64,000 nucleotides of DNA from Lama guanicoe (lineage: Eukaryota), in contig MU053588.1 of NCBI GenBank assembly GCA_013239625.1, forward strand, positions 1,265,988-1,329,987, in the 5' to 3' direction. Each line of letters opens with the position of its first letter. The first letter of the stretch is position 1. The notes under the pieces were generated by a model. That model made no database searches, had not been told where the DNA came from, and saw nothing but the letters and a program-made list of their open reading frames with translations. Positions 12,201 to 33,037 of the stretch are shown here, piece by piece. Made by a program: the position numbers and the translations under genes.

Positions 12201-12839
12201 ATGATATAGATCATGTGTATATATTTTTTGAAATGACAGAAAGTTTTAAGTACAATACAAACTTCGTTTTATCCTGAGCCATTTATGAATACTTTACTCT
12301 GTATTTTATACAAATAAGAACATTCTTCACTATACGTACAGTAAGACAGAGGTGAAAGCCAGGAAGTCAACACGGATGAATCACTGCCATCTAACGGAAG
12401 AACCCAACCATCTTTACCAGTTGTGCCAATAATGCCTTACTTTTCACCTTGTTTTTTGAAAGTTGTACCGCTTTGATATATTACCTTTACAACTATTTTT
12501 AATGTTCAAAAACTACATGGCACACACAACTAAAATACAAATTACTTCATTTAACAGTGAGCCCTGGAGTGCCAATGAATGCTGTATTTTCTCAGGTCTC
12601 TGACAGGCAGAGGAGGACCTCTCACTAAACACTAGAAGGGCCAGGCATGGGGAAGGGTAACTATAGGTGGAGGTTTACAAAGTGACGGAAAAGTCTGGGA
12701 CCTGGGTATCCAGGCTGGGTGGTTCCACAGGATTTTGCACCCCTCTTCAGGCTAAACAAAGGATAACAGACCCTAGATCCTGGACCGATTGCTAGGATTG
12801 TAATATTGGGAGTGGCCACGAGGGAGCGACATGTCACTG

Positions 12840-13700
12840 GCTTCCCAAGGTTCCCAGACGGAAGGAAGCCCCGGACACAACCCTCCAGGGACACAGCTCC
12901 GGACTTTCCCGGACTCAGGACGCAATCCGCTGTGAGCTGCTGGCACCCAGCCACTCGCCGGGCTCCGTCTACAGCTGGGAACCACCGCCGCTACGAGCGC
13001 CTCGCCGAGGGTGCGGAGCCGGGGAACTCTCTCGTAGCCTCGGCTCCTCTCCCCGCCTAACGCGCCATTCAGGGGCGACCGGGCGACCCCCCTGAAACAA
13101 GAAAATCCCCAGCCCCTGGCATTCGGGGGTGCCTGGGCGTCTGTTTGTAGCCCCGCTCGCCCTTCCCCCCTGGAACCCCTCTGACAGGGCCAGGGTCTCC
13201 CGGCCATCGGGTGAGCACAGGTGGAAGAAACTCCGAACGGCCTTCTTGACAGCAGCTGGGCCCAAAGAGCTAGAGCCTTCGCGTCGAGGTTATTTCCACC
13301 GGGCAGCTGCCGCTGGAGTGCGCGTCTGCCCCGGGGCGCGAACTGGCGGGGCCTGCCCCAACTTGGGGACAGGTGGGAGGGAGGCGACGCCCCGACCCAC
13401 TTCCCAGAAACTCCCAGAGCTAACCGTCTGCAGCCTTGGGGAGGCCCAGATAGTGGGGGAAGGCGAGATGAAGGTAAAGGCAGTGCAGGAACCCTGAGAT
13501 TCACGCACCATCTCCGCGAAGCTGGGGTCTCCAAGGGACCTGTTTGGAGACCAACCAATTGGGAGGCGCCCCCTGCGGAGCGGGTGCCAAGGGAGGACTT
13601 GGCTTGGGCTTTTCCAAACTGCCTCAGGTCACCCGACCCCGTTACAACCTGGCTGCTTTGCCGAATGCTGCAGGAAGGCGAGCCAAAGCCCCACCCCTAC
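12840..13700. repeat. Diverged outer part of the left inverted-repeat arm (homologous to ~31750-32580, CpG-rich)
   Basis: Shared blocks with the reverse complement of 31750-32580, e.g. CCAAACAGGTCCCTTGGAGACCCCAGC, GCTGTAGA(C/T)GGAGCC and AAAGTCCGGAGC, separated by many mismatches and indels. Confidence 0.8.
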
Positions 13701-13887
13701 TAGATCGCGACCCTCCTGTGGCCTCCCGAGACAGAAATGGCCCAGAGAGATCCACGCCCGGATCCCGCCCCGCTGCGGAATCGCTGTGTGACTCTTAGTC
13801 AGTGTCTTAACTGCTTTGAACCTACTTTCCTCATCCATATGAAGGAGCCACAGACACACACGAGGCGCACAGATAAGCGGCTAAGAC

Positions 13888-13893
13888 TTTATT
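13888..13893 (-). terminator. Polyadenylation signal AATAAA of the minus-strand LGALS7
   Basis: TTTATT on the plus strand, 50 nt downstream of the stop codon. Confidence 0.8.
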
Positions 13894-13943
13894 TGCCATC
13901 CAAGACCCCTGCGCCCCACCCCCACCCGCGCTCCTGGAAGGGC

Positions 13944-16260
13944 TCAGAAGATCTTCACCAGCTCCAGCTGCAGGTCCCCGCCCACCTCCAACGCGCGCAC
14001 GCGCGCCGGCGGGATGCGGTAGCGGAAGTGGTGGTATTCCGAGTCCCCGACCACAGCCTGCACAGGAGAGGGGACATGGCTTATGGGTCCCGAGGCCACT
14101 GCCAGGTTATTCCCAACTTGGACTCACGCTGCGTGACCTGGGCACCCACGGACCCCTTCGGTCCCCAGGCCCCATTGGGCAAATACTGTTCATCCTAACC
14201 CCTTGCCGTGAGGATTAAATGAGCTCATTGTTGACACGTGAGTGCTTTTTAAGCATTGGAGGTGGATGTTGTGACCACGATCCCTGCATTCACCACCTGA
14301 CTCCTGATGCGCAGATTGAAAGTGAAGAATAGCCTGTGTGATGAAGGGTCTGCAGCGACCATTCCCTGCTGAACCTTGTTTCTGGGTCCTGTCTCCCAAC
14401 CCATCCATGCTCCTGCTCCTGAGCCTCCACCACAGACTCAAGCAGACAGGCAATAGGGTCGGGGATGAAAGTCTGGGCCACGTCTCACTCCCCTCCTCCC
14501 TGACGCCCTCCCCTGACACCTACCCTTTGGTCACTTGGCTCTTGCTCTCTCGCCTTGCCACGGCCACACACCTGCCCTCAGGCACTAGTGCGCTTGCGCC
14601 AGAGATTAGTGCGCTTGCACCAGGGGAGGTGAGGGCCTGGGGACGCCCTGCCCAGCCTGGGCCGCACCTTTGCTCTCCACCTCGCCCCAAGGGCCTTCCT
14701 GGCCTTCCCAAGGGAAGAGACCTGGGTGCTGGCACCCACCCCTGTGGCAGAGACGCACCTTGAAGCCCTCTTCGGTGGCGATGAGGAGCACGTCGAAGGG
14801 CTGCCCACGCTGGAAGGGAATGCCCGAGCCCCGCTCCTCTTGGCCCCAGGCGCCGCGCTCCAGGGTGTTGAAGACCACGGTGGACTCATCCAGCCGAGGA
14901 TTGAAATGCAGGGCGGCCTCACCGCCCGGCTCCTCACTGCACAGCAGGTTTACATAGAACCTGGTAGGTGATGGGGGAAGAGGACGCCTTGGAAAGAGGT
15001 TCTGGACCAGCACACCAGGACTTAACCTTTTTCCAGAGCACGAACAAATTTACAGGGACCTGGACTGTCACACACACCAGTGAAGGACGGGTTGTAGACT
15101 GGAAGCCAGGGAGCCCAGATTCCAGGCCATCCAAAAACCGATTAGGGGCCTGCACACACATCTGCTAGGCGAGGGTGACTAAGCTGTGGCCTGGGTCCCC
15201 CTCATTTCCAGAGTCTGGAGTTGCCAAGGAATCAAGCTCCTGAAGACCAGGGTGCTCCCGATTCCCAAGGCATCCTCAGTTCCCAGAGGGCTAGGACGCA
15301 TACCAGGGACCCCAGTATGCCCAGGCAGCCTAGACTCCCAGAAATCCTGAAGATCCCGACCCAGGAAGTCATATGATTGATTGGCTAGGCTGCCATTTAC
15401 CCAGCCTCTGGCCTGCCCAGCATGTGCAAGAGGCCAGGGATCTCAGGGCACCTCCAATTCACAGGACAATTCCAGAATTCCTGAGAACTCAGACTGAAAC
15501 TCACAGGACTCTAGGTAGGAACCGTGGGTTCCTCTGGGACCTGCAATTTCTTAGAATAACGTCGACTCCAGGCACACAGTCGTGGGACAGGTAAGTGAGG
15601 ACATCAAATTCCAGGTCAGAAGTAACTCAGGGATTCCAAGACCCACGTGGGCAAAGTTAGCCTGGGGCCCTGTGTTCTGGGCTGGAAGAAGTGGGATCAG
15701 CTGAGCCTGGAGACCTCCCCCCACCCTCCCACACCGAGCCCGGGGCTCTCACCTGCCAGCCTTGTCCGGGACAACGCCACGAATTCTCAACACGGTACCG
15801 ACTCGGATGCCCTCGGGCAGAGAGGTCTTGTGGGGCACGTTCTGCAGCAACAGGGGTGTGGGGGCCAAGGTGAATCAGGGAGGCGGAGGAGAGACCCAGA
15901 TGGGTCAGCTCCAGGGGGAGAGTGACCGGGACCCAGACCAGCAGAATCCGAGAGAAGAAAGGGCACAGAGACAAAGGAATGAGAGCCAAGGAAGGGAAAG
16001 AGTTGGAGAGAGGAACACAAAGTCAACAGAAAAATGTCCTAAGAGCTAGAAGGCAAAAGGAAACCAGCCAAGGGGGAGATGGGAGCATGGGGACGGGTTG
16101 GGTCAACCCAGAAACCACAGCCCAGAACTCCATAGCACAGCCTAGCACCCACTTTCTCTGCTGAAACAGCCTGGTCCCCCCTCCCCGGGTCTGGGCAGCC
16201 TTGGGTCCACCCCCCACAAACATCCAGGGCCCCTGAAGCACTCACGAAGCTCCCTGCCAT
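13944..16260 (-). CDS. LGALS7: Galectin-7 (139 aa): join(16246..16260, 15753..15841, 14759..14960, 13944..14057)
   Basis: MAGSF|NVPHKTSLPEGIRVGTVLRIRGVVPDKAG|RFYVNLLCSEEPGGEAALHFNPRLDESTVVFNTLERGAWGQEERG...EGFK|AVVGDSEYHHFRYRIP...VKIF*. Galectin motif HxNPR..VxN..WGxEER is intact. GT-AG exons of 15/89/202/114 nt. Confidence 0.96.
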
Positions 16261-16914
16261 GGCTGGGACAGCGGGACGGGCCGGGTGGCGGCGCTGCCAG
16301 GGATGGCTGCTGGGGCCTTAAGCAAAAGCAGGGCGCGGCTGGCCCTGTTGACTCACCCTCACCCCTTTCCACACCCACCGCCCACACCTGGCACCGACCC
16401 TGGCCCTGGGGCCATGCTGGCCCCCCGCACCCTCTGTCTAAGGCCTCTGACACTCCGGCAGTCCCTGAGGATTCCCAGGTGTGCTGCCCTCCTCTTTTGA
16501 GCTAATAATGGTAGGAACAGTTCATAATAATAAAAATGTCAACAACGTAGGAGGCTCATGGAGCCCCCATCCTACCAGCCCTTCCTTCCTGCTGCCCGGT
16601 GGCGAGAAGACTCTCAGGCCCATCTCATCATGGAAAACTTGAGTCCCGCGAGGCTAAGCTGTGGGCTGGAACTCGGGACCCCTCTCTCTCCCAGGTTAGG
16701 ACCTGCTGCCCAGGGCTAAGGATGTGTCTCCACCAAAATTCCAGTTTATGCTTCTGAAATATAATAACCATGGCAACAGTGGTAATAATAGAAAAGGGAG
16801 CGCAGAGGGGCAGGCTAGTTTGCTGATGGTCAAGGCTGTGTGCCTGGTGCCTGGTGCAGTGCCCGGCCCACAGCAAGTGCTCAGTAAATATGGGTGAAGG
16901 AGGGAATCCAAAAT

Positions 16915-17075
16915 GACAATAGCTGCCTTTTACCAGCCTCTGGCCTGCCCGGCGTGTGCAAGAGAGCAGTGATCTCATACAGCCATTGAGGGAGAGGCAT
17001 CGATCACCCTTATTTGGACAGGTAGGAAACTGAGGCTCAGAAAGGAGAAGCAATTTGCCCCCAAAACACATCTGT
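16915..17075 (+). mobile_element. Degenerate MIR upstream of LGALS7 (mirrored at ~28398-28558)
   Basis: MIR core GGAAACTGAGGCTCAGAAAGG...AATTTGCCC. Confidence 0.65.
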
Positions 17076-19856
17076 GCGATACCATGGGGACCGTGGCTCT
17101 GGCTTCTTCATCTCTGGAAGTTCCTGTCTGCTTTTTTCTGTTTCTGTAAATGCCCTAGTCTGTCTCTCTGTCTCCTCCATCTCTGACTCTCTGTCCCATG
17201 AGTTCCTGCCTGTTTCTCTCCTTTATGTCTCCGTCTCTCCTTCCACCTCCCAGAACCTCCTTCCTCTGTCCCACCTGGTGTTCAGGACAAGGGGGTAGAG
17301 TGGAGGGGTGTCCTAGGACCCAACACCACCCAGACCAAGGAAGAGGGAAAAGTGGGACCCCCGCCAGGCCCATTTGCAGTCCCCATAGCCCAAGACTCCA
17401 GAAGAGGCATCCAGGTGTGAAGGGTGGGGCCCGACGGGGAACGCTGACAGGGGGTTCTGGAAAGCAGGGAACAGGGGAGGTGGGGGAGCTGGGCAGAGAC
17501 CCAGCCTACAGCCCACCTCTCCCTCTCCTCCTCCCCACCCCATTGGGGCCGCACCCGCAGAGGGAGAAGAGGCCGGGGGCAGAGCCAGGAATGGAAACTT
17601 TGGGTGGAGACAACCAGACTCAGACCTGATCCACCTCCCACAGCCTCTCAGGCTTCCCAGACTCCCTCCAGCCCCCTCGCCGCACAGTTGGTGCAGTTGG
17701 GGGAGGAAGCGCCTCAGAGAGGGAGGCTGGGCAGCTGCATTTGGGTGGGGGCCGCGGGCGCCCCCATTTTGCAGAGGAGAAAACAGGCTGAGAGAGGGCC
17801 AGTCTCTCAGCCAAGGCCTCCCAGCAAGGAAGGGACCAGGGCCCGGGCTGGAGCCCCCTCTGTGTGCCAAGGGCACCTCCTGGGGATTTTAAGTAGAGGG
17901 GACAGCGGGGTTTGAGGTCCTAACTCCAACAACTCGGGTGGAGAGTTTCCCGGAGCAGGGGGCTCTGGTACTCTGATCAGGAAGGGTGCCTTCGCCAGCC
18001 TCATTCCGCGTGTCCCTGCTGCGCCCGGGAGCCCATCTCTTCCCTGATCTCCTCATTGTGCCCGGATAGTTCTTCACATGCTGCCAACCTGCAAGTCCAG
18101 ACTTGACTTTCGGGTCTGGTGAAATGATTGCATCAATCTGTTATCAGTTTGATTGCGGGTTCATTTCTCATAACTCCGGTGTGAGCATCCTGGATGGATT
18201 CTTATTCGGTTGAGTTGATTATCTTCTATCAGTTCTTGAGTAATGTCTTCAGGTCTTTTTTTTTTTTTTTTCATTTCCAAGTAAGTGGTGTTTGTACTTG
18301 TTTCCCACTATGTTTTGGCTTTCTCCAGCTGTCTGTCCTATTCGTGACTCGTCCAGATTTTAACAGAATACTTCTCCAAGTCTTGACAATAGACAGGCCA
18401 GGGCAACCACCACCCCCATCAAGTTCCTCCCAGGCCCCTGAAACAGCCAGCCCCCCTCCACCTGCCCCAGGACACGCGGTCACTCCTCAGCGTTTAAGAG
18501 CCACCACGTTCATTTGCCATGCAAACAAGGGAGAGGGGTGGGCAGCGGGCTACGTTTGCTGCCCTTCCCCCTCGTTCAGAAGCAGTGAGGGCGAGAAGTA
18601 CTGAGCTCCCCCTCGGTGGGTGTGGGAGTGGAAAATCGCAGGCTCTGTCAGTGTCAGCTTCGTGGTGACCTTGGGCTGGTTTTCATATGCAGTGAGACAA
18701 TTCAGGGGCTGCTTTGGTTTTGCAAATTAAGTTACAAATGAGGAAAATGACACGTCTGAAAATCTGACTTTTTCTTAAGTTTTGAAGTCCATGGAAAACC
18801 CTCAGTTCTAGTTATAAATACAGTAAATTGTACCAATCCAGTCACTTGTTAAGGGGAGCATTTTCTGTCATAGTTGGTTCCCAACGGAGTTCATTAAGCT
18901 CCCTTAAATATTGTCACCTGAAGGTGGGATTTGGGCATGTGTGAAGTTTTGTCTAGTAGACTGTCCAGGCCCTAAGTCATCTTGTACGTTTCCATCTTGG
19001 ATTGTGGACACACTGACTTGCTCTTTCTCTTCTTCCTTCCTGCCTTTCCTTCCTGTGCTGAGCAGTTGGGTCCTGCAGCCAGTAGGCAGGTGATTAAGTG
19101 CTGCCCGTGGGGGTGGGGAGGTCATGGGGTGGGGGAGGGGCTGAGCGGGCAGAGGAGGCTCTGCTCCCCCAGGGCTGGGTCAGCTGGGGTGTCAGAGGGA
19201 GCCGGTGAGGAGGGTGCTCAGCTGAGACTGGCCCTCAGGCCTCGGGTAAGGAGAACAGGGGGACAATGGGGAGCCCAGCCCCCACATGGGAGGAGGCGTC
19301 TGTGGAGGGGTGAGGGTCACCGAGAGGTGCTGGAGCGTATTGGGGCGAGGACGGTATCCCCTGGGGGAGGAAACTGGGTGTGGGTGTCAGGGATGGAAGG
19401 GAGTCCAGTGCCCCTCTCCCACTCTCAGTGGAGGGAGGTATAGATGTGGAAAAAAAACATGGACTGTGAGCCTGTGATGTTGCCCGGGAATTGGAGGTGT
19501 CACATGAACAAATGATTTCACGATCAAATTTATATTAATGGTTTAGGTGTTTTGTATTGTGGTTATAAAGGAGAATGAAGCCTCAAAAATGCACACTGAT
19601 GTATGTAGGGTGAAGTGGCTTGCCTTCCAATGGTTCACGGAGAGAAACAGCAGATGTTGCAACATGTGAACACACCTGAGAGCCTGGGTGAATCCTTGCA
19701 GGGCTTCGGTACTATTGTGCTAACTTTTCTAGAGGTGTGAAAATTTTCAACATTTTCAAATAGTTGGCAGAAGAAATCAAACATGAGGTCTGATTTTACA
19801 GATTCAGGACTTCTGCCGTCCCCAAGGGAGCACCCTCTTCAATATCCCCACCCCCC

Positions 19857-19980
19857 GGGGCAGGGTATAGCTCAGTGGTAGAGTCCGTGCTTAGCATGCA
19901 TAATGTCCTGTACAAGGTCCCCAGTACCTCCGTTAAAAAAAATTAAAATAAATAAATACGTAAATAAATCTAATTACCCC
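19857..19980 (+). mobile_element. tRNA-derived SINE (Vic-1-like)
   Basis: GGGGCAGGGTATAGCTCAGTGGTAGAG...CTTAGCATGC...CCCCAGTACCTCC plus tail. Confidence 0.85.
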
Positions 19981-20569
19981 TGAAAAGCAATCAAACAAGA
20001 AAACCATTCCCACCCCCATATGGGCAGTGGAGACAAGAATGAACCTCCCTGGCTATTTTCACATGGTTGGAGGGTACAGAGTGGATCTTGGAGGAGGGGT
20101 GGCTGCTGGGCCTCCAAGGGAACCAACCAGGTGTAACCATCCACAGCCTCCAGTCTCCTGATCTCGGGGTTTTCATCTCTGGTTAATTGTTGGCAGAAAG
20201 CAGAATTTGAATGGACCAGGAAGAATACAGGATTGGTAAAAAATTGGTCTGGAGCCCTGTGTGCCCCAGGGCAGTGAGCAGGTTGATTGCAGCCTGATCT
20301 TCTTGCCCTCAGCTTGGTTCTGTCTGTCTTGTAACAGGAGTTTTTCAGTCTGTGGAGTGGGAATGCAAGGCCTCTTGAAGAAGACTCTGTGCTTTCCTGG
20401 GAAAGCATGACAGTTCTGGTGAATCAGCCCCACAAGGTTGTGTAACACGTGTGTCCAGAGCTGAAAAGCTGGTGGCTGTTTTGAAGAATCAAGAATTATT
20501 ATATTATTAAACTTTGGTAAAATTTTCTAACTTAAAGCCTTCCTATCTGGACAAAGACAATAAAATGCT

Positions 20570-20697
20570 AGAAAGAAAGAAAGAAAGGATGGATGGAAGG
20601 AGAGAGGGAAGGAAGGATGAAAGGAAGAAAGAAGGGAAAGAAAGGAAAGGAAGAAAGGAAAGGAAGGAAGGAAAGGAAGGAAGGAAGGACGGACGGA
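20570..20697 (+). repeat. (GGAA/GAAA)n purine-rich simple repeat
   Basis: Directly visible. Confidence 0.9.
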
Positions 20698-20906
20698 CCT
20701 CCCTGGAGGCAGAATCAGAACCAGATTTTCATGTCCCGTGCACTTGATCTTTGCTATGGGCCAGTATCTGCTGAGTGTTTCCATGTTTCCCCTTTTCTGA
20801 ATAAGTTTATTGGGTGTCCTGGGCCAGCCATGGCTGGGCCCCAGTGAAGAGGACTATGTCTTCCTCCAAAATCCTGGACTCTGGGCTGTACACAGTAAGC
20901 AGATGG

Positions 20907-21410
20907 TGTTGAGTCCAAACTTGTTCTGCTCACTGCATGACAGGCCAAATAATTCGGAGATGAGGTGTTGGGGCAAGGAATAGCTATTTTATTCAGAATG
21001 CCGGCAGACTGAAAAGACGGCGGACTAATTTCCTGGAGAACCATGGATTCCCCAAGTCAGAATTCAGGTTCCTATTATACTAAAAGGGGTATGCTTGGTT
21101 GTTGTAAGCTTCTTAGTGTTGGAATCCTTTGTTCTTGCAGCTGTCCACAGGGGTCAGATCATGATGTCCCTGTAAACCTCCAACAAAACAAACATTATTT
21201 TCTATTATTCACTGTTATGTTTATATGAATGGAAAAGTGTTAATATCCTTAACAGTGAGAGCCTTGAGAATGGGCTGTCCTCTATATTTCAGGCAACATT
21301 CTTTTACAAAAGGTGCAGAACCAGCAAGACTAAGCCTAGGAAGCAGAGCACAGGGTTAAAGTCAGCAAAACGGATCTAATATGGAGTCAGATTTGTTCTT
21401 TCCCTTTACA
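20907..21410 (-). mobile_element. ERV1-class solo LTR with 4-bp TSD (ATGG)
   Basis: TGTT...TACA termini flanked by ATGG at 20903-20906 and 21411-21414. TTTATT (minus-strand AATAAA) near 20988. Confidence 0.75.
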
Positions 21411-22119
21411 ATGGGAGCTTAAGGCTGTCTCCATTGGAAGACAAGGTGAGTGCAGTCCAGGCGGGGAAGAAGAGTATATTTAAATATTATTGTAGCCAAA
21501 GGGATGGAGTAACAGGGAGCACTGGCTGACCATCCAATACACACTTACCTCTTTCTTTCTTAATCAAAGGCTCCTGACTCAGTCCCAGATGGCACTGTGG
21601 CTATTGCATTTCCCAGGATTCGAATTGCTTTTGTGGTGAAACAAATTACCCCAAAGCTTTGCAGGTGAAGACGGCCTTTGTGTGTATGTGGGTGTGCGTG
21701 TGTGTGCGCGCGCACTCATGGCTTCTGTGGTCAAGAATTTGGATGGAGCACAGTGGGAACATCTGGTCTTTGTTCCATGATGTCTGGGAAAGCTCTGGCC
21801 TAGGGACTGGGCTCATCTGGGGGACCTGCACGTGGCTTCCCTAGGAAGCCTGGGTGTCCTCAGAGTAGCTGGACTTCTTCCAGGGCAGCTCAGGGCTCCG
21901 AAAGCAAAGGCCCCTTCAGCTCACTAGGTGAAAGCTGCCTCATCCTTTCCCTTCTAGTCTGGGGAGTCGTGCCGAATTCCTTGACGCCACATTCTATTTG
22001 TTATGAAGGACTGAGGGCTCCACCTCGCCCTCCTCATGGTAGTAGGAGTGCCAAAGAATTGGTGGCTGTATTTTATTTATTTTATTTTTATTATTGGTGG
22101 ATGTATTTATTGACTTTTC

Positions 22120-22404
22120 TTTTTTTAATTTTTAATTTTTTAATTTTTATTTTTAGGTGAGGGGGAGGTAATTAGGTTTACTTATTTATTTTAATGGAGG
22201 TACTAGGGATTGAACCCAGGACCTCATGCATGCTAAGCAGGCACTCTACCACTGAGCTATACCTTCCCCCACTTACTGACTTTTCTTTTTTTTAATTTTT
22301 TTATATTTTATTTTAATTTTTTTCCCCTGGGGCACTGAGGCTTGAACCCAGGACCTCATGCATGCCAAGCACGCAGCCTACCACTGAGCTGTATCTCTAC
22401 CCCC
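22120..22404 (-). mobile_element. Two adjacent tRNA-derived SINEs (Vic-1-like; ~22120-22270 and ~22280-22404)
   Basis: Two copies of TTGAACCCAGGACCTCATGCATGC...TACCACTGAGCT. Confidence 0.85.
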
Positions 22405-24029
22405 ACTGGATGTATTTTAAAACGTCCACATCCACCCTTCTTTGCAACCGCAGGCAGCCAGGGGCGTGGAAGTGGATATTCTATGTGGGGCTTCTGGAAA
22501 GTTCTTTGCAGGAAACTGACCCAGCAGAGGAAGTGCCATTTGACCCTCCACCGTACTCATCCTTCCTGTCTGGAACATCCTATGATCAGAAATTTTGGTC
22601 AGGAAGTAAAACCTGAACCTGTACCTGCAGTCATCAGAACAGTGTCCCTCATGACCCAGAGGTTGTGCTGAGCCAAACTTTTTCGCTCCAGTTTTAATAT
22701 GGCCCAAAATATACATGCATAACGTTTTTTAAACACACCATTTTACAAAGCTTATGGTGAAAAACAGTCGCTTTCTCCCCACCCCACCTCCTCCTGCGCC
22801 TTCCCTTTGCAGCTGTAAATCATCTACTTATTGCTACTTCTGGGTTTTTCTGTTTGGGTCATTACCTGTTGTTGACTCCCAGGAAAGAGGAAGAGGATGT
22901 AGCTTTCTTTCATTTCTTCACCTCCTCCCTCCCGCTTACTGTTTAACTGACAGAGTTATAAAGTCATTTTGGTTACATCAATGTTCAGTGTTTCCACCCC
23001 TGTGACTACGTTCACATCTTTCTCCACCCAGCCACAGGGTCTATCTGTGAAGGGTTCTCCTTTCTCACACAACTTTATCTTTTCCCTGGAGTGAATCATC
23101 ATCCTGTTTTGTGTTTGTTTAGTTTTCTTGATGAGTCTTATGAATTGGAATCCTGAGTTATCTATCCCTTGATGAAATCTCCCAATACATTCAGATGCAT
23201 CCAGCCTACTGTCAGTTTCATTTTCTTGGAGATTTGGCCTCCTAGCTGTTCTTTATGCACACCCTCCCTTTCCTGCCCAGTGGTTGAAGCCCTCGGGTAG
23301 CTGCCACCATGCACCACCGTCACCTCTCAGCCTCCCTTTAGCACCTGGTGCCATGGATTCCTGAGTGTGTTTGGGGATCTGAATTCAGTGAGTTTCCTCT
23401 ATACTCTGAGATCATTTTTTGGTTCTGCATTTCCTGACTACATGATCTGAAGACTCTTTTCTCTTTATGTCAGTAAAACAGGAACACAGTAGTCTATTAG
23501 ATTAGATTAGATTAGATTAGAATGAGTAACTAAAGGGTGAATGTTAATAAAGTGCCTAGAGCATTTTCATGGGAGTGGCTACTGTTAGTGGGTTTTAGGG
23601 AAGGGAATGACATTACAGGCTACTGCTTCTTAACACATTACTCCCAACCTAGAAGCTGAAAATAAACATTTTATTTTGCTCCGAGATCCTATAGATTAGG
23701 AATTCAAATAGGGTGTGGTTGTGGCGGGGGTGGGGGGGTTTGTTTCTGCTTCTCAGTGTCTGGGAAGACCTCAGCTGGGAAGACTCAATGGTTGGGGGTG
23801 ATGTAAACGCCTGAGTCTAGATCATCTGGAGGCTTATCCCCTCAGGAGTCCATCTGCAAGTCAGTGCTGGCAGCTGGCTGGGATCTCAGCCGTGTGGACC
23901 TGTGGACAGGAGCACTCTCCACATGGCTTCGGCTTCTTCACAATATTGCCGCTTCAGGGTACCCAGACTGCTCCCGTGGCGGCTCAGGGCTCACAGGGCA
24001 GCAGCCTCTTCTGACACAGTATCACTTCT

Positions 24030-24965
24030 GCTGCAGTGGTGAAATAAAATTCACATTGTATGTCAAGACAAGAAAAATTTAAGCATAAAAAAATTTCTCT
24101 CCTCTTTGGCCTCCCCTCTCCCCAGACCATGCATTGTGTATCTGCATTATACATTGACCAAGTAACCTCCATCAGCGGAAATACCTACTCAGCCACAAAG
24201 AGGAACATTCTTCTAGCACCAATAAGACAACTGCTTAAAGATGACATTCCTTTTTTTTTAACCAATGGATTTTATTTATTTTATTTTATTTAAAAATTTT
24301 TAACACATTTATTATGGTATGATTCCTGTACAGTAAGCTACACATATTTCAGATGAACAATTTGATGAATTTTGATAGATGTATTTATACCAGTGAAACC
24401 ACCACCACAGGATAGCTAATGATTCCATCATCCCCCGAGAGGTGCAATTTTTAAATTCCCAATTTATCCCTTCCCACATGCTTTGGCCCCTGGTAACCAT
24501 AAGTTTGTTCTCTATGTCTATGAGTCTGTTTCTATTTTGTAGATAAGTTCATTTGTGTCTTTTTTTTTCAGATTCCACATCTAAGTGATATCATATGGTA
24601 TTTTTCTTTCTCTTTCTGACTTACTTCACTTAGAATGACAATCTCCAGATCCATCCATGTTGCTGCAAATGGCATTATTTTATTATTTTTATGGCTAAGT
24701 AGTATTCCATTGTATAAATATACCACAGCTTCTTTATCGAGATGACATTCCTTTTTGATCTTGTAAGGGGCCATGCACGATGATGCTTGCATCTGGATTG
24801 TGTAGACTGTCAATAACGTCATTATTAACAGCCCTCTGTCTCAAAAAAACTTATATAACTGTGCCAGCTTTCTGAGATGCTGGTCCCAGGTTATAATCCT
24901 CAATTTGACTCGAATAAAATTTTCCGTTTCTTTCTTAGACCACTTGATTAATTTTTCATGGAAGC
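24030..24965 (+). mobile_element. Probable ERV LTR split by an L1 insertion, itself lying within MLT1 remnants
   Basis: TATA-like TATATAA at ~24852 and AATAAA at ~24913. The two halves rejoin across a 17-bp TSD. Family not identified. Confidence 0.5.
24256..24739 (-). mobile_element. 5'-truncated L1 insertion with 17-bp TSD AGATGACATTCCTTTTT
   Basis: TSD at 24239-24255 and 24740-24756. ORF2 C-terminal IMPFAATWMDLEIVILSEVSQKEKEKYHMISL on the minus strand. Confidence 0.85.
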
Positions 24966-27900
24966 ATTCTATTGGTTATCAATGTGTCAGAAGCCCACCC
25001 TGATTCAAACAAAGGTGCCATAGGATACCACCCCCACCCCTGCCAACCATAGGAAAAGGGGCAAAGTCGCATCATAGAAGAGCCGTGGGACAGGAGATAC
25101 TAGTGTGGGCATCTTTGGAAATTACAATTGGCCACATTTGTTAAAACCTTCTGGATGAAGCCCAGAGTCTTCAAGTCTATCTCTAGCCCACATCCCTTGG
25201 ATTCAGATGACACCTTCTCATGTTGGGTATGTCTGCTACATCCATTCAGATGACTTCTTTGCCTGACCAATATACCAACTTGATCAAGTGTTTTGTCTAG
25301 CTGAATTTCTTTCCTATTACCTGGCAGGACCACGATACCTGTGGATATTCAAATCATAGCTGATTAGGGTCTGCACATCTCTTGTCCTTCCTGGCTTTGT
25401 GGTCAGACTTGTGCCACACACTTTGTTCTAATTGGGAACATTTTTCCTCAGTTAATTGTTCCTATCTGTACATTTTTTTTTCTTATGAAGAATATCCAAC
25501 ATGTACAAAAGTAGACAGAACCTAGAAAAGTGAATCCCTCTGCACTTCTTACCCATCACAACACCTGGCAAAATCTGACCCAATCTGCATACCCACCCAT
25601 CTTCAACCTATGAAAGGTAATATTCTTTTTTTTTTAATTCACTATTTCTTATTTGTTTGGGGGTTTTTTTTGAGGGGAGCCAGGTCTATAAGAGTTCCTT
25701 TAGTAGGGAAAGATACGGTCTGTAGGAACCAAAATCTGCGTGCAGGTGTGCTCACTGCAATTCAGGTGTCTCTGCTCCCAGGCCCTCTGGGGGACAGGGT
25801 AGGGGATATAATAAGACAGATGTATGTCTACACATGGTAGGGGAGGGAAATTTTTACCTCTGCCCTCCTAGGATTTTTCATCAGGACCTGAGGAGTAAAT
25901 TGACATATCAAACAAACAGATTAACAGCAGAAATGCATACATACTTATATGTCTTCCGGGGTCCTGGCACCATATAAGGAAATAAACTCAAAGAAATGGC
26001 TAAACCTACAAGCTAAGAACAATATAGGCAGTTGTGGAAAAGTAAACTAATACATGGGCGGCTAAAGGAAGATAAGAATGATTTTAACAGGGCCTGTTTT
26101 TATAGAACGCTCTAGGTCTCAACTTGCTGATAAAAATGTTACATCTCTTTGGTACAAGTAGGACATCTTTCACGTGGCAGTTTATATCTCTTGTTTTCAG
26201 GAGAAAAGAGATTACAATGTCCTTACCCCTGGGCCTGAGGGCCAGTCTCAGCTGAGCACCCTCCTCACCGGCTCCCTCTGACACCCCAGCTGACCCAGCC
26301 CTGGGGGAGCAGAGCCTCCTCTGCCCGCTCAGCCCCTGCCCCACCCCGTGACCTCCCCACCCCCACGGGCAGCACTTAATCACCTGCCTACTGGCTGCAG
26401 GACCCAACTGCTCAGCACAGGAAGGAAAGGCAGGAAGGAAGAAGAGAAAGAGCAAGTCAGTGTGTCCACAGTCCAAGATGGAAACGTACAAGATGACTTA
26501 GGGCCTGGACAGTCTACTAGACAAAACTTCACACATGCCCAAATCCCACCTTCAGGTGACAATATTTAAGGGAGCTTAATGAACTCCGTTGGGAACCAAC
26601 TATGACAGAAAATGCTCCCCTTAACAAGTGACTGGATTGGTACAATTTACTGTATTTATAACTAGAACTGAGGGTTTTCCATGGACTTCAAAACTTAAGA
26701 AAAAGTCAGATTTTCAGACGTGTCATTTTCCTCATTTGTAACTTAATTTGCAAAACCAAAGCAGCCCCTGAATTGTCTCACTGCATATGAAAACCAGCCC
26801 AAGGTCACCACGAAGCTGACACTGACAGAGCCTGCGATTTTCCACTCCCACACCCACCGCGGGGGAGCTCAGTACTTCTCGCCCTCACTGCTTCTGAACG
26901 AGGGGGAAGGGCAGCAAACGTAGCCCGCTGCCCACCCCTCTCCCTTGTTTGCATGGCAAATGAACGTGGTGGCTCTTAAACGCTGAGGAGTGACCGCGTG
27001 TCCTGGGGCAGGTGGAGGGGGGCTGGCTGTTTCAGGGGCCTGGGAGGAACTTGATGGGGGTGGTGGTTGCCCTGGCCTGTCTATTGTCAAGACTTGGAGA
27101 AGTATTCTGTTAAAATCTGGACGAGTCACGAATAGGACAGACAGCTGGAGAAAGCCAAAACATAGTGGGAAACAAGTACAAACACCACTTACTTGGAAAT
27201 GAAAAAAAAAAAAAAAGGTCCTGAAGACATTACTCAAGAACTGATAGAAGATAATCAACTCAACCGAATAAGAATCCATCCAGGATGCTCACACCGGAGT
27301 TATGAGAAATGAACCCGCAATCAAACTGATAACAGATTGATGCAATCATTTCACCAGACCCGAAAGTCAAGTCTGGACTTGCAGGTTGGCAGCATGTGAA
27401 GAACTATCCGGGCACAATGAGGAGATCAGGGAAGAGATGGGCTCCCGGGCGCAGCAGGGACACGCGGAATGAGGCTGGCGAAGGCACCCTTCCTGATCAG
27501 AGTACCAGAGCCCCCTGCTCCGGGAAACTCTCCACCCGAGTTGTTGGAGTTAGGACCTCAAACCCCGCTGTCCCCTCTACTTAAAATCCCCAGGAGGTGC
27601 CCTTGGCACACAGAGGGGGCTCCAGCCCGGGCCCTGGTCCCTTCCTTGCTGGGAGGCCTTGGCTGAGAGACTGGCCCTCTCTCAGCCTGTTTTCTCCTCT
27701 GCAAAATGGGGGCGCCCGCGGCCCCCACCCAAATGCAGCTGCCCAGCCTCCCTCTCTGAGGCGCTTCCTCCCCCAACTGCACCAACTGTGCGGCGAGGGG
27801 GCTGGAGGGAGTCTGGGAAGCCTGAGAGGCTGTGGGAGGTGGATCAGGTCTGAGTCTGGTTGTCTCCACCCAAAGTTTCCATTCCTGGCTCTGCCCCCGG

Positions 27901-29082
27901 CCTCTTCTCCCTCTGCGGGTGCGGCCCCAATGGGGTGGGGAGGAGGAGAGGGAGAGGTGGGCTGTAGGCTGGGTCTCTGCCCAGCTCCCCCACCTCCCCT
28001 GTTCCCTGCCTTCCAGAACCCCCTGTCAGCGTTCCCCGTCGGGCCCCACCCTTCACACCTGGATGCCTCTTCTGGAGTCTTGGGCTATGGGGACTGCAAA
28101 TGGGCCTGGCGGGGGTCCCACTTTTCCCTCTTCCTTGGTCTGGGTGGTGTTGGGTCCTAGGACACCCCTCCACTCTACCCCCTTGTCCTGAACACCAGGT
28201 GGGACAGAGGAAGGAGGTTCTGGGAGGTGGAAGGAGAGACGGAGACATAAAGGAGAGAAACAGGCAGGAACTCATGGGACAGAGAGTCAGAGATGGAGGA
28301 GACAGAGAGACAGACTAGGGCATTTACAGAAACAGAAAAAAGCAGACAGGAACTTCCAGAGATGAAGAAGCCAGAGCCACGGTCCCCATGGTATCGCACA
28401 GATGTGTTTTGGGGGCAAATTGCTTCTCCTTTCTGAGCCTCAGTTTCCTACCTGTCCAAATAAGGGTGATCGATGCCTCTCCCTCAATGGCTGTATGAGA
28501 TCACTGCTCTCTTGCACACGCCGGGCAGGCCAGAGGCTGGTAAAAGGCAGCTATTGTCATTTTGGATTCCCTCCTTCACCCATATTTACTGAGCACTTGC
28601 TGTGGGCCGGGCACTGCACCAGGCACCAGGCACACAGCCTTGACCATCAGCAAACTAGCCTGCCCCTCTGCGCTCCCTTTTCTATTATTACCACTGTTGC
28701 CATGGTTATTATATTTCAGAAGCATAAACTGGAATTTTGGTGGAGACACATCCTTAGCCCTGGGCAGCAGGTCCTAACCTGGGAGAGAGAGGGGTCCCGA
28801 GTTCCAGCCCACAGCTTAGCCTCGCGGGACTCAAGTTTTCCATGATGAGATGGGCCTGAGAGTCTTCTCGCCACCGGGCAGCAGGAAGGAAGGGCTGGTA
28901 GGATGGGGGCTCCATGAGCCTCCTACGTTGTTGACATTTTTATTATTATGAACTGTTCCTACCATTATTAGCTCAAAAGAGGAGGGCAGCACACCTGGGA
29001 ATCCTCAGGGACTGCCGGAGTGTCAGAGGCCTTAGACAGAGGGTGCGGGGGGCCAGCATGGCCCCAGGGCCAGGGTCGGTGC

Positions 29083-29156
29083 CAGGTGTGGGCGGTGGGT
29101 GTGGAAAGGGGTGAGGGTGAGTCAACAGGGCCAGCCGCGCCCTGCTTTTGCTTAAG
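29083..29156 (+). promoter_or_regulatory. Candidate LGALS7 proximal promoter: E-box CAGGTG (29083), KLF/CACCC GGGTGTGG (29097), AP-1 TGAGTCA (29118) and a weak TATA-like CTTAAG (29151); mirrored at 16317-16390
   Basis: Exact motif matches 60-130 nt upstream of the ATG. Function not demonstrated. Confidence 0.5.
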
Positions 29157-29212
29157 GCCCCAGCAGCCATCCCTGGCAGCGCCGCCACCCGGCCCGTCCC
29201 GCTGTCCCAGCC

Positions 29213-31508
29213 ATGGCAGGGAGCTTCGTGAGTGCTTCAGGGGCCCTGGATGTTTGTGGGGGGTGGACCCAAGGCTGCCCAGACCCGGGGAGGGGGGACC
29301 AGGCTGTTTCAGCGGAGAAAGTGGGTGCTAGGCTGTGCTATGGAGTTCTGGGCTGTGGTTTCTGGGTTGACCCAACCCGTCCCCATGCTCCCATCTCCCC
29401 CTTGGCTGGTTTCCTTTTGCCTTCTAGCTCTTAGGACATTTTTCTGTTGACTTTGTGTTCCTCTCTCCAACTCTTTCCCTTCCTTGGCTCTCATTCCTTT
29501 GTCTCTGTGCCCTTTCTTCTCTCGGATTCTGCTGGTCTGGGTCCCGGTCACTCTCCCCCTGGAGCTGACCCATCTGGGTCTCTCCTCCGCCTCCCTGATT
29601 CACCTTGGCCCCCACACCCCTGTTGCTGCAGAACGTGCCCCACAAGACCTCTCTGCCCGAGGGCATCCGAGTCGGTACCGTGTTGAGAATTCGTGGCGTT
29701 GTCCCGGACAAGGCTGGCAGGTGAGAGCCCCGGGCTCGGTGTGGGAGGGTGGGGGGAGGTCTCCAGGCTCAGCTGATCCCACTTCTTCCAGCCCAGAACA
29801 CAGGGCCCCAGGCTAACTTTGCCCACGTGGGTCTTGGAATCCCTGAGTTACTTCTGACCTGGAATTTGATGTCCTCACTTACCTGTCCCACGACTGTGTG
29901 CCTGGAGTCGACGTTATTCTAAGAAATTGCAGGTCCCAGAGGAACCCACGGTTCCTACCTAGAGTCCTGTGAGTTTCAGTCTGAGTTCTCAGGAATTCTG
30001 GAATTGTCCTGTGAATTGGAGGTGCCCTGAGATCCCTGGCCTCTTGCACATGCTGGGCAGGCCAGAGGCTGGGTAAATGGCAGCCTAGCCAATCAATCAT
30101 ATGACTTCCTGGGTCGGGATCTTCAGGATTTCTGGGAGTCTAGGCTGCCTGGGCATACTGGGGTCCCTGGTATGCGTCCTAGCCCTCTGGGAACTGAGGA
30201 TGCCTTGGGAATCGGGAGCACCCTGGTCTTCAGGAGCTTGATTCCTTGGCAACTCCAGACTCTGGAAATGAGGGGGACCCAGGCCACAGCTTAGTCACCC
30301 TCGCCTAGCAGATGTGTGTGCAGGCCCCTAATCGGTTTTTGGATGGCCTGGAATCTGGGCTCCCTGGCTTCCAGTCTACAACCCGTCCTTCACTGGTGTG
30401 TGTGACAGTCCAGGTCCCTGTAAATTTGTTCGTGCTCTGGAAAAAGGTTAAGTCCTGGTGTGCTGGTCCAGAACCTCTTTCCAAGGCGTCCTCTTCCCCC
30501 ATCACCTACCAGGTTCTATGTAAACCTGCTGTGCAGTGAGGAGCCGGGCGGTGAGGCCGCCCTGCATTTCAATCCTCGGCTGGATGAGTCCACCGTGGTC
30601 TTCAACACCCTGGAGCGCGGCGCCTGGGGCCAAGAGGAGCGGGGCTCGGGCATTCCCTTCCAGCGTGGGCAGCCCTTCGACGTGCTCCTCATCGCCACCG
30701 AAGAGGGCTTCAAGGTGCGTCTCTGCCACAGGGGTGGGTGCCAGCACCCAGGTCTCTTCCCTTGGGAAGGCCAGGAAGGCCCTTGGGGGGACGAGGAGAG
30801 CAAAGGCGCGGCCCAGGCTGGGCAGGGCGTCCCCAGGCCCTCACCTCCCCTGGTGCAAGCGCACTAGTGCCTGAGGGCAGGTGTGTGGCCGTGGCAAGGC
30901 GAGAGAGCAAGAGCCAAGTGACCAAAGGGTAGGTGTCAGGGGAGGGCGTCAGGGAGGAGGGGAGTGAGACGTGGCCCAGACTTTCATCCCCGACCCTATT
31001 GCCTGTCTGCTTGAGTCTGTGGTGGAGGCTCAGGGGCAGGAGCATGGATGGGTTGGGAGACAGGACCCAGAAACAAGGTTCAGCAGGGAATGGTCGCTGC
31101 AGACCCTTCATCACACAGGCTATTCTTCACTTTCAATCTGCGCATCAGGAGTCAGGTGGTGAATGCAGGGATCGTGGTCACAACATCCACCTCCAATGCT
31201 TAAAAAGCACTCACGTGTCAACAATGAGCTCATTTAATCCTCACGGCAAGGGGTTAGGATGAACAGTATTTGCCCAATGGGGCCTGGGGACCGAAGGGGT
31301 CCGTGGGTGCCCAGGTCACGCAGCGTGAGTCCAAGTTGGGAATAACCTGGCAGTGGCCTCGGGACCCATAAGCCATGTCCCCTCTCCTGTGCAGGCTGTG
31401 GTCGGGGACTCGGAATACCACCACTTCCGCTACCGCATCCCGCCGGCGCGCGTGCGCGCGTTGGAGGTGGGCGGGGACCTGCAGCTGGAGCTGGTGAAGA
31501 TCTTCTGA
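29213..31508 (+). CDS. LGALS7B: Galectin-7, second copy (139 aa, same protein as the minus copy): join(29213..29227, 29632..29720, 30513..30714, 31395..31508)
   Basis: Same spliced translation and GT-AG exon structure as the minus copy. Named B by position and orientation relative to the human locus. Confidence 0.94.
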
Positions 31509-31558
31509 GCCCTTCCAGGAGCGCGGGTGGGGGTGGGGCGCAGAGGTCTTGGGTGGCA

Positions 31559-31564
31559 AATAAA
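31559..31564 (+). terminator. Polyadenylation signal AATAAA of the plus-strand LGALS7
   Basis: AATAAA 50 nt after the TGA. Confidence 0.8.
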
Positions 31565-31749
31565 GTCTTAGCCGCTTATCTGTGCGCCTCGTGTGTGTCT
31601 GTGGCTCCTTCATATGGATGAGGAAAGTAGGTTCAAAGCAGTTAAGACACTGACTAAGAGTCACACAGCGATTCCGCAGCGGGGCGGGATCCGGGCGTGG
31701 ATCTCTCTGGGCCATTTCTGTCTCGGGAGGCCACAGGAGGGTCGCGGTC

Positions 31750-32580
31750 TGGTAGGGGTGGGGCTTTGGCTCGCCTTCCTGCAGCATTCGGCAAAGCAGC
31801 TAGGTTGAAACGGGGTGCGGTGACCTGAGGCAGTTTGGAGGGGCCCAAGTCCTCCCTTGGCGCCCCCTCCGCAAGTGTAAAGGGCCTTCCAATCGATCCA
31901 AACAGGTCCCTTGGAGACCCCAGCCTCGCGGAGATGGTATTTGAATCTCAGGCACCCTGCGCCACCTCTGCCCTCTTGTCGCCTCTCTCCTGCTCCCGGG
32001 GCGTCCGACATCTGCCCAGTGCTCGCGCGGGGAGGGCCTGGGAAGCCGATCCGAGAGTCGTCTGCCTCCCATCAATCTCCAAGTCGGGACAGGTCTCGCC
32101 AGTTCGCGCCTAGGGGCAGACGCGTACTGCAGTGGCAGTCGCCCGGCAGAGGGGACGCGAAGGGCAGAGCTCCTGGGTCCCCGCTCTGTTAAGAGTGTGG
32201 TTCGGCCTTACTTCCTCCTGGGTTTACTCAATGGCCCAGAGACCCCGGCCCTACGGGAAGGGCCCCAGGGGGAAGGGGGGGCGAGGATACAAGCAGACAC
32301 CCAGTCACCCCTGACCGTCAGGGGGGATTTTCTGGTACAGAGGGGTCGCTGGGTCGCTCTTGAAAGTGGGTGTATAGGGGGCGCGGGAGCACGCGGGCGC
32401 CCTCTCCTGGCCACCCTCAGCAAGGACCCCTGCAGCAGCCGTGGTTCTCGGCTGTAGATGGAGCCAGGCGGGTGGCTACATGCCAGCGGCGCATATTGAT
32501 TTGGGTCCCAGGTATCGAAAAGTCCGGAGCCGCACACCTGGACGGATGTACCGCACGGTTCCACCCCAAACCTCGGGCAA
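31750..32580. repeat. Diverged outer part of the right inverted-repeat arm (CpG-rich)
   Basis: Patchy homology to the reverse complement of ~12840-13700. Confidence 0.8.
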
Positions 32581-32919
32581 ACACCCTTCTTTCCTTGGGC
32601 CGCTGCAGTCGTTGCGGTTTAGAAACAGAGGCTCAGCAAGCTAGTGCTGGACCTGAAACAGCGGGTTAGGAAGATCACGCCTTGCCCCAAGGCTTGAGCT
32701 TTTCCTACCCGCTTTGCTGCCCCGTGAGACTCTTTAGCTGAAGCCAACCCACCCCACGCCTAACTCTTAACAGTTTCTCTCTGGCTGGGCATTTGAATTA
32801 AGAGTTCCCCGTCCTAGGGAAGGACCTCTGAATTCTTCTGGTCCCCCAGAGCTCATTGTTTTTAATTTTATTTGCTTGTTCAAGTGTGTGTGTATATATA
32901 CATACATTATATATCTTAT

Positions 32920-33037
32920 GAGGGGGAAGTAGTTAGGTTTATTCATTTATCTATCTTTGGTGGAGATACTGGGGATTGAACTGGGACCTCCTGCATGCTA
33001 AGCATATGCTCTACCACTTGAGATAGACCCTTCCCCC
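32920..33037 (-). mobile_element. tRNA-derived SINE (Vic-1-like)
   Basis: ACTGGGGATTGAACTGGGACCTCCTGCATGCTAAGCATATGCTCTACCACTTGAG. Confidence 0.8.

What the first reader, a model, noticed from the sequence alone, without database searches (positions are those of the whole stretch)
13700..31750. Galectin-7 gene palindrome: 5.5-kb near-identical inverted arms encoding identical proteins
Seen: two head-to-head LGALS7 genes in mirror arms (13700-19241 and 26232-31750). By eye I find about 15 substitutions and one 21-bp indel (not an exhaustive count), none in coding exons. The identity extends over introns and ~3 kb of upstream sequence. Established: human also carries LGALS7/LGALS7B head-to-head between CAPN12 and LGALS4. 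Inference: the same architecture in a primate and a probable camelid, with very high within-species identity, points to an ancient duplication maintained by arm-to-arm gene conversion (an autosomal palindrome) rather than independent recent duplications.
Basis: partly seen in the sequence, partly recalled or inferred. Interest (0 to 1): 0.75.

Follow-up and report, generated by a model that had tools for sequence, protein, structure and literature searches.

The report
Ancient galectin-7 palindrome kept identical
In a camelid genome the two mirror-image copies of the epithelial lectin gene galectin-7 are 99.7% identical although the DNA just outside them shows that the duplication is tens of millions of years old, so the copies are most likely kept alike by copying onto each other; the gene pair was already known and the process is a known one, but this looks like an unusually old example on an ordinary chromosome.

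Summary
Confirmed. Inverted arms (13652-19241, 26232-31800) differ by 17 substitutions and one 21-bp indel in 5590 columns. Both carry an intact, identical LGALS7, whose protein equals an alpaca record.

Outside the core, inverted homology continues in five colinear blocks at 75% identity (K2P 0.31, about 100 times the core's 0.003). So the duplication is old (at least 57-79 Myr at a recalled rate) and only the core is homogenised.

Across mammals, 36 of 39 putative same-species protein pairs (22 families, 8 orders) are closer to each other than to any other order's protein. Two horseshoe bats show a conversion mosaic.

Best reading: an old duplication held by arm-to-arm gene conversion (0.88). 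A single boreoeutherian origin is about 0.7, because breakpoints could not be compared across species. No read-level check was obtained.

The gene pair is published for human, cow and dog. Ten library searches found no paper on its concerted evolution, but the key 2013 paper was unreadable. The scan has noted this kind of structure on other DNA, not on LGALS7. New member of a known kind.

The parts
13652..19241 (-). Arm A, near-identical core (upstream DNA, LGALS7 copy A, 292 bp past the stop)
26232..31800 (+). Arm B, near-identical core (2981 bp upstream, LGALS7 copy B, 292 bp past the stop)
13944..16260 (-). LGALS7 copy A coding span; exons 16260-16246, 15841-15753, 14960-14759, 14057-13944; 139 aa
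29213..31508 (+). LGALS7 copy B coding span; exons 29213-29227, 29632-29720, 30513-30714, 31395-31508; 139 aa, CDS identical to copy A
   Evidence: identity as galectin-7
19242..26231 (.). Spacer, 6990 bp, GC 44%; its two halves show no clear inverted homology (best local scores 1554-2076 against shuffle maxima 1529-2062)
14598..14618 (-). 21-bp extra sequence in intron 3 of copy A, an imperfect tandem duplication; next to a cluster of 4 substitutions
12877..13651 (-). Old outer flank, block 1 in A (CpG-rich, GC 66%), partner of 31801-32549
   Evidence: 740 aligned sites, 74% identity, score 34603 against shuffle maximum 2058
31801..32549 (+). Old outer flank, block 1 in B; first 150 bp 88% identical to A, the rest 69-75%
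12230..12489 (-). Old outer flank, block 2 in A, partner of 33054-33348 (74%, K2P 0.33)
33054..33348 (+). Old outer flank, block 2 in B
11408..11654 (-). Old outer flank, blocks 3 and 3b in A, partners of 34399-34582 (72%) and 34908-34978 (75%)
34399..34978 (+). Old outer flank, blocks 3 (34399-34582) and 3b (34908-34978) in B
7212..7518 (-). Old outer flank, block 4 in A, partner of 34964-35261 (80%, K2P 0.24); outermost homology found; seems to span shared junctions between old repeat fragments (repeat names recalled, not tested)
   Evidence: sequence
34964..35261 (+). Old outer flank, block 4 in B; directly follows block 3b, so about 3.9 kb present in A (7519-11407) is missing here
32893..33053 (-). 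tRNA-like SINE copy present only in the B flank, between two aligned blocks that are 31 bp apart in A: inserted after the duplication
   Evidence: block ends A12521/B32892 and A12489/B33054; family likeness to tRNA from the copy at 35623-35695; a global alignment across it was not clean
25835..26216 (.). TG...CA-bounded, LTR-like segment ending 3 bp before the inner end of homology in B; LTR likeness is recalled, no target-site duplication seen by eye
   Evidence: sequence; not tested against a repeat library

Best explanation
An inverted duplication of at least 12 kb (A 7212-19253; B 26220-35261) arose long ago, probably in the common ancestor of Laurasiatheria and Euarchontoglires. Its outer parts were broken up by insertions and deletions, fell out of reach of recombination and drifted apart to about 75% identity. 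The 5.6-kb part that carries the whole galectin-7 transcription unit is still homogenised by recurrent non-allelic gene conversion between the arms (repair of a break in one arm using the other, 7 kb away, as template), so new mutations are either erased or copied to both genes. Shown: the two divergence levels, their sharp border, the excess of differences at the core's ends, within-lineage clustering of putative pairs. Inferred: conversion as the mechanism; an age of at least 57-79 Myr (recalled rate); one origin for all lineages (about 0.7); selection for a double dose of an unchanged protein as the reason both copies and the core persist (about 0.5); occasional crossover that would flip the spacer (untested).
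For: (1) Core distance 0.00305 against pooled flank K2P 0.312 (bootstrap 0.275-0.346; 1533 sites in 5 blocks; 0.28 without CpG-prone sites), ratio 102. (2) The flank blocks are colinear, antiparallel, block 1 is contiguous with the core, and the four largest had no second partner in the window; scores far exceed shuffles. (3) Flank distance exceeds the median distance among 10 SINE copies in the window (0.225, 45 pairs) and is two thirds of the camelid-mouse intron distance (0.44-0.47). (4) Only 2 of 17 substitutions lie in the inner half of the core (p 0.001; as clustered events 2 of 11, p 0.03) and the first 150 bp outside are intermediate (88%); a single recent duplication predicts an even spread. 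(5) 36 of 39 putative same-species pairs are closer to each other than to any protein of another order, 29 of 39 closer than to any other family; median distance 0.023; a tree of 123 rows shows no clade of one copy spanning orders. (6) Rhinolophus ferrumequinum / R. sinicus: 5 sites group by copy (positions 37-60) and 7 group by species (70-125), one switch, p 0.0024. (7) Several pairs have adjacent locus tags or accessions (Ovis 13245/13246, Capra 15593/15594, Rangifer, Nyctereutes).
Against: No read-level check of copy number or junctions (laid nothing). No flank DNA of other two-copy species was available, so shared breakpoints are untested. Pairs were chosen by me from names, accessions and contig lengths, not gene coordinates; some may be alleles, isoforms or old and new models, and members of one 90% cluster are alike by construction; large clusters were listed only in part (15 of 36, 16, 33, 57 and 17). 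3 of 39 pairs (Equus asinus, Hipposideros, Tupaia) fail the other-order test and 10 of 39 the other-family test. The tree is a quick one on 133 columns with 54 of 114 inner branches open. The Rhinolophus quartet was noticed by eye first; of 25 quartets 9 had both site types and only this one had p under 0.05 (about 0.02 after correcting for 9). Much of the old flank looks repeat-derived. A passage on human duplicates says conversion usually slows and the copies escape (10.1101/135152), so very long persistence is not the default. Mouse, rat and squirrel clusters showed one gene, which needs losses under a single origin.
Confidence: 0.88

Rival explanations
1. Old duplication, but the core was made identical by one recent long overwrite (re-duplication of one arm over the other) rather than by recurrent conversion.
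For: Both core borders are fairly sharp; 0.003 corresponds to about 0.7 Myr at a recalled rate; one genome cannot separate one long event from many short ones.
Against: Differences pile up at the core's ends and an intermediate 150-bp step lies outside it; near-identical pairs recur in many lineages, which would need such an overwrite in each.
Confidence: 0.05
2. Independent duplications of LGALS7 at a duplication-prone site: recent ones in each lineage, or at least separate old ones in Laurasiatheria and Euarchontoglires.
For: Within-lineage clustering of proteins alone cannot tell conversion from independent duplication (the same ambiguity is stated for another galectin cluster in PMC6751361); single genes listed for mouse, rat and squirrels; orientation is documented only for this window and human.
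Against: A recent origin is excluded for this genome by the 75% flanks; pairs occur in 22 families; copy-specific residues are shared across species in rhinos, horses, Mustela, cats and bats. The weaker form (two old origins) is not excluded and I give it about 0.25 within the best explanation.
Confidence: 0.03
3. Assembly artefact: a false duplication, or two real but more diverged copies made alike by consensus polishing.
For: 0.003 is about the level of allelic difference in a mammal (recalled); no reads could be laid.
Against: Each arm runs into its own version of an old paralogous flank, which a haplotype or fold-back artefact would not create; an alpaca record lists two accessions for this exact protein; 20 runs of 8 studies and 6 organism labels hold 0.88-0.97 of the sampled words of arm B plus its outer flank (presence only, not copy number).
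Confidence: 0.03
4. Old duplication kept identical by purifying selection alone.
For: Galectin-7 is conserved (about 90% between camelid and carnivores).
Against: Synonymous sites, introns and 3 kb upstream are identical too, while the orthologous intron is only 66% identical to mouse.
Confidence: 0.01

Closest known systems
Human LGALS7/LGALS7B and the two-gene state in cow and dog (Kaltner et al. 2013, doi 10.1093/glycob/cwt052; not held; known here only through passages of the reviews PMC5751359, and PMC8715898)
   Same: Two adjacent genes in opposite orientation next to LGALS4, encoding identical galectin-7.
   Different: The reviews report different promoter sites in the human copies; here the 1.2 kb next to the ATG are identical and 3 kb differ at 7 positions. 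The passages read speak of copy-number variation and give no age and no conversion.
Primate X-chromosome palindromes with arm-to-arm conversion (Jackson et al. 2021, PMC8327919; passages)
   Same: Gene-bearing inverted arms over 99% identical around a spacer without symmetry; old structure with young-looking arms.
   Different: Arms there are 8-140 kb, on a sex chromosome, mostly testis-biased, and traced to 25 Myr; here 5.6 kb, in a block syntenic with human chromosome 19, an epithelial lectin, and at least twice as old by flank divergence. That paper says such deep conservation has few parallels.
FLNA-EMD inverted repeats of eutherians (Caceres et al. 2007; seen only as cited in PMC8327919)
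   Same: Inverted repeats at one locus in many mammals, proposed to be about 100 Myr old.
   Different: There the genes lie in the spacer and the repeats are not orthologous in all species, so independent origins stay open; here the gene lies in the arms and relic flanks date the duplication inside one genome.
Non-allelic gene conversion in human duplicates (bioRxiv 10.1101/135152; passages)
   Same: Mechanism proposed here; mean tract about 250 bp.
   Different: Typical rate about ten times mutation, with eventual escape; this core would need a few hundred times mutation (2/d = 655, ignoring allelic diversity) and has not escaped in most lineages sampled, though horse, tree shrew, Hipposideros and baleen whale pairs are partly diverged.

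Membership tests
Galectin-7 (LGALS7) | Single galectin domain closest to galectin-7 | tested here: met
   Pfam PF00337; best solved-structure hits are galectin-7 at E 1e-30, next family 8e-24; identical to a Vicugna pacos galectin-7-like record
Galectin-7 (LGALS7) | Sugar-binding residues H49, N51, R53, N62, W69, E72, R74 (human numbering, legend in PMC5751359) | tested here: met
   H53, N55, R57, N66, W73, E76, R78 present and invariant in 18 aligned proteins
Galectin-7 (LGALS7) | Intact four-exon reading frame beside LGALS4 | tested here: met
Galectin-7 (LGALS7) | Expression of both copies in stratified epithelia | not tested
   no RNA data examined; identical coding exons would not separate the copies
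Duplicates under concerted evolution by gene conversion | Copies within a species more alike than orthologues between lineages | tested here: met
   36 of 39 putative pairs against other orders, 29 of 39 against other families; protein level only
Duplicates under concerted evolution by gene conversion | Duplication older than the similarity of the copies | tested here: met
   flank K2P 0.31 against core 0.003; copy-specific residues shared between species
Duplicates under concerted evolution by gene conversion | Mosaic tracts that switch between grouping by copy and grouping by species | tested here: met
   1 clear case among 9 quartets with both site types, 25 tested (Rhinolophus, p 0.0024 uncorrected); not testable in camelid DNA itself
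Duplicates under concerted evolution by gene conversion | Orthologous duplication breakpoints across lineages | not testable with these tools
   no whole genome held; the metagenome scan gave only a 1-kb mouse fragment and one distant hit
Duplicates under concerted evolution by gene conversion | GC-biased fixation in converted DNA | tested here: inconclusive
   core GC 57%, adjacent old flank 64-66%, spacer 44%; changes cannot be polarised without an outgroup
Large mammalian palindromes (sex-chromosome type) | Inverted arms over 99% identical with a spacer | tested here: met
   99.69%, spacer 6990 bp
Large mammalian palindromes (sex-chromosome type) | Arm length of 8-10 kb or more (PMC8327919 passage; abstract start of 10.1101/800185) | tested here: not met
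   core arms 5590 and 5569 bp; the old duplicated unit reached at least 12 kb in A
Large mammalian palindromes (sex-chromosome type) | Sex-chromosome location and testis-biased genes | tested here: inconclusive
   gene order matches the human chromosome 19 block (chromosome), so autosomal by inference; expression not tested

The most novel reading that the evidence does not exclude
One inverted duplication in the boreoeutherian ancestor (about 90 Myr, recalled date) has stayed locked by conversion in most descendant orders, which would make it one of the oldest dated gene-bearing palindromes on a mammalian autosome; and in bats, mustelids, rhinos and horses selection holds one residue of the sugar-specificity loop L4 different between the copies against that homogenisation (Glu or Gln at position 60; horse has one copy of each published loop type), giving two galectin-7 proteins with different glycan preferences. 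The first half has about 0.7; the second is a lead only, since the order-level permutation was not significant.
Probability: 0.2. Interest if true: 0.7.

Novelty: new member of a known kind. Interest (0 to 1): 0.5.

Why it matters
How long gene conversion can hold two copies together, and what ends it, is an open question: one study of human duplicates finds that copies usually escape, and a study of X palindromes Myr of conservation rare. This locus is small, autosomal by synteny, seems to be present in many sequenced mammals, and carries its own clock in the relic flanks. It shows locked (camelid), mosaic (horseshoe bats) and largely escaped (horse, tree shrew) states, so the question can be tested directly on existing assemblies. 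Practically, species trees, selection scans and orthology calls that treat LGALS7 and LGALS7B as independent or as recent duplicates would be misled, and the apparently single-copy mouse may not model the gene dose of two-copy species.

Tried and rejected
Whole-genome search: no genome held. Reads: laid nothing, so copy number and junctions stay unchecked; one search shows presence only. Inner flanks: no convincing inverted homology within the spacer (4 comparisons, best scores at or just above shuffle maxima). Two further flank candidates were rejected (A 12259-12226, 34 bp; A 6592-6509, within shuffles) and one weak block (A 12706-12521, score 1804 against 1636) was left out of the pooled distance. 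The inverted match 2059-2538 / 35914-36393 was left out because further copies of that repeat lie at 24443-24741 and 56351-56450. Site-60 enrichment: differs in 9 of 28 lineages (6 of them bats) but reaches 3 of 6 order groups with chance 0.058 for that site and 0.82 for any site: not support. No structured RNA in 26232-36500 except a tRNA-like SINE head and a sub-threshold microRNA match. 36 stop-to-stop frames upstream of gene B were listed and not searched further. Metagenome scan: 2 loci from 175 pattern matches, one a mouse Lgals7 fragment used for calibration, one a 31% hit not followed. The careful tree did not finish; the quick tree is reported. Literature: searches gave no paper joining galectin-7 with gene conversion or concerted evolution (0 papers; 21 papers, none on this by title or abstract start). 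LGALS7 was not found in the searched supplements of PMC11890787 (4 files, one scan unread), PMC3790853 (11 files, two scans unread) and PMC13629690 (3 files), nor linked to conversion in passages of PMC10343441, PMC6751361, PMC8615947, PMC2394760. Subscription papers, among them Kaltner 2013, and bioRxiv supplements could not be seen and may already state part of this.
Full report
Observation. Self-comparison of the window gives one long inverted match, 26220-32549 against 19252-12877. A global alignment resolves it into a near-identical core, B 26232-31800 against A 19241-13652, with 17 substitutions and one 21-bp indel in 5590 columns (99.69%), and a diverged outer part. The core holds 2981 bp upstream of the start codon, a four-exon gene and 292 bp after the stop. 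The coding exons are identical between arms, the introns are GT-AG and the product is 139 aa. Exon 3 hits galectin-7 structures first and is 100% identical to a Camelus bactrianus protein; the full protein equals a Vicugna pacos record with two accessions. Neighbours are a calpain, a two-domain galectin, an enoyl-CoA hydratase family gene and an RRM gene, the order recalled for human CAPN12, LGALS7, LGALS7B, LGALS4, ECH1, HNRNPL.

The relic flanks date the duplication. Beyond the outer end of the core the inverted homology goes on in five colinear blocks, out to A 7212 and B 35261. Their local scores (2669-34603) exceed the maxima of 100 shuffles (1414-2058), block 1 is contiguous with the core, and the four largest had no second partner in the window. 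Pooled over 1533 sites identity is 74.9% and K2P 0.312 (bootstrap 0.275-0.346; 0.28 without CpG-prone sites), 102 times the core distance. For scale, 10 SINE copies in the window differ by a median 0.225, one of them sits between two flank blocks in B only, and the orthologous camelid-mouse introns differ by 0.44-0.47 in their alignable parts. At a recalled rate of 2.2e-9 per site and year the flanks give 57-79 Myr and the core 0.7 Myr. The flank figure is a minimum, because it times escape from conversion, not the duplication. The two halves of the spacer show no clear homology; in B the inner end abuts an LTR-like segment (by eye and recall), which may have set that border.

The shape of the core fits recurrent conversion. 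Only 2 of 17 substitutions lie in its inner half (p 0.001; 2 of 11 clustered events, p 0.03), and the first 150 bp outside are 88% identical before the drop to 69-75%. The 21-bp indel is an imperfect tandem duplication in A beside four substitutions, as expected if an indel locally hinders conversion (inference). If the core is at mutation-conversion balance, conversion runs at a few hundred times mutation (2/d = 655); allelic diversity is ignored in that figure.

Other mammals, protein level. Two homologue searches (120 of 135 and 120 of 143 hits listed) and 30 cluster look-ups gave 39 putative same-species pairs from 22 families and 8 orders of Laurasiatheria and Euarchontoglires. In 36 of 39 each copy is closer to its partner than to any protein of another order; 29 of 39 are closer than any other family; the median distance is 0.023. 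A quick tree of 123 rows places pairs inside their own families and shows no clade of one copy spanning orders, with 54 of 114 inner branches open. At shallow depth copies group by position across species (horses 21 sites, Mustela 5, Saccopteryx 4), so these pairs predate those splits, while both horse copies share 14 residues against both rhino copies with none grouping by copy. Rhinolophus ferrumequinum and R. sinicus give the classic mosaic: 5 copy-type sites at 37-60, then 7 species-type sites at 70-125 (p 0.0024; noticed by eye first; 9 of 25 quartets had both types and no other reached 0.05). Limits: pairs were picked from names, accessions and contig lengths, some may be alleles or isoforms, members of one 90% cluster are alike by construction, and five large clusters were listed only in part. 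No second gene was evident in the listings for mouse, rat, squirrels, Afrotheria, Xenarthra or marsupials; this is weak evidence, but with the flank date it points to an origin near the boreoeutherian root and later losses.

Artefact check. Read-level evidence was not obtained (laid nothing). 20 of 24 listed runs, from 8 studies and 6 organism labels, hold 0.88-0.97 of the sampled words of arm B and its outer flank, which shows presence only. The structure itself argues against a false duplication: each arm continues into its own old version of the flank.

How it most likely works. Shown: two intact genes, two divergence levels, a border effect, lineage-wise clustering. Inferred: breaks in one arm are repaired from the other, homogenising promoter, introns and exons; indels and insertions in the flanks cut these off long ago; selection for two working copies probably keeps the gene-bearing part; rare crossovers should flip the spacer. 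With identical proximal upstream DNA the camelid copies are probably co-regulated and act as a double dose, unlike the promoter differences reported for human (PMC5751359, passage).

A side lead. Position 60 in loop L4 is Glu in one copy and Gln in the other in most bat pairs, Mustela and rhinos, and the horse copies carry the acidic residue at 62 and at 60 respectively. PMC4422656 (passages) ties this loop's Glu to type 1 versus type 2 LacNAc preference, describes two mammalian loop groups and leaves the second group's preference open. My order-level permutation did not show enrichment (0.058 for this site, 0.82 for any site), so this is a hypothesis only.

Comparison with what is known. The inverted pair is published for human, with two genes also in cow and dog (Kaltner 2013, seen only through reviews). 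Conversion-maintained palindromes are a known kind (PMC8327919, passages; 10.1101/135152, passages). It works like a sex-chromosome palindrome but fails that class's size criterion. Ten searches and three supplement searches found no statement of concerted evolution or age for LGALS7/LGALS7B; subscription papers were out of reach. The scan's notes hold similar structures on other DNA and none on LGALS7.

Verdict. Real; old duplication with a converted core (0.88); single boreoeutherian origin about 0.7; new member of a known kind; interest 0.5.

Noticed in passing
window 28496-28551 and 30028-30084 (mirrored in arm A at 16977-16922 and 15445-15389): A 57-bp element occurs twice in each arm, upstream and in intron 2, 88% alike; the intronic copy contains a CATG core that recalls a p53/p63 half-site (recalled motif).
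   Followed up: no
window 27365-27384 and 18089-18108: A 20-mer with 3 mismatches to a recalled p53 consensus lies in both arms about 1.8 kb upstream of the ATG; no chance control was run.
   Followed up: partly
window 32143 (+) and 32410 (-): Two matches to a recalled CTCF-like motif in the CpG-rich old flank of arm B, with no match at one mismatch in the A counterpart or elsewhere in the window.
   Followed up: partly
window 26421-27480 (and mirror in arm A): A 1-kb stretch inside the arms with GC 48% against 59-69% on either side and a long A run near 27200; origin unknown.
   Followed up: partly
protein P0142: One identical Camelus protein carries three evenly spaced dromedary accessions, which may mean three gene models or isoforms; it has Val2 where this window has Ala2.
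   Followed up: no
proteins P0082/P0104, P0094/P0110, P0057/P0272, P0322/P0278: Horse, tree shrew, Hipposideros and gray whale pairs are 16-20% diverged, horse almost only in the N-terminal half (19 of 61 against 4 of 72): candidate escapes from conversion.
   Followed up: partly
window 7519-11407: About 3.9 kb of AT-rich, L1-like DNA (recalled likeness) present in the A flank and missing between the matching blocks of the B flank.
   Followed up: partly
window 42930-43140: An exon of the neighbouring two-domain galectin matches LGALS7 exon 3 at 64% DNA identity, in line with the proposed origin of LGALS7 from the LGALS4 N-terminal domain (PMC10343441, passage).
   Followed up: no
L002:422-802: An uninterrupted galectin-like frame, 31% identical over 122 residues, in a 1.1-kb metagenome contig.
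   Followed up: no
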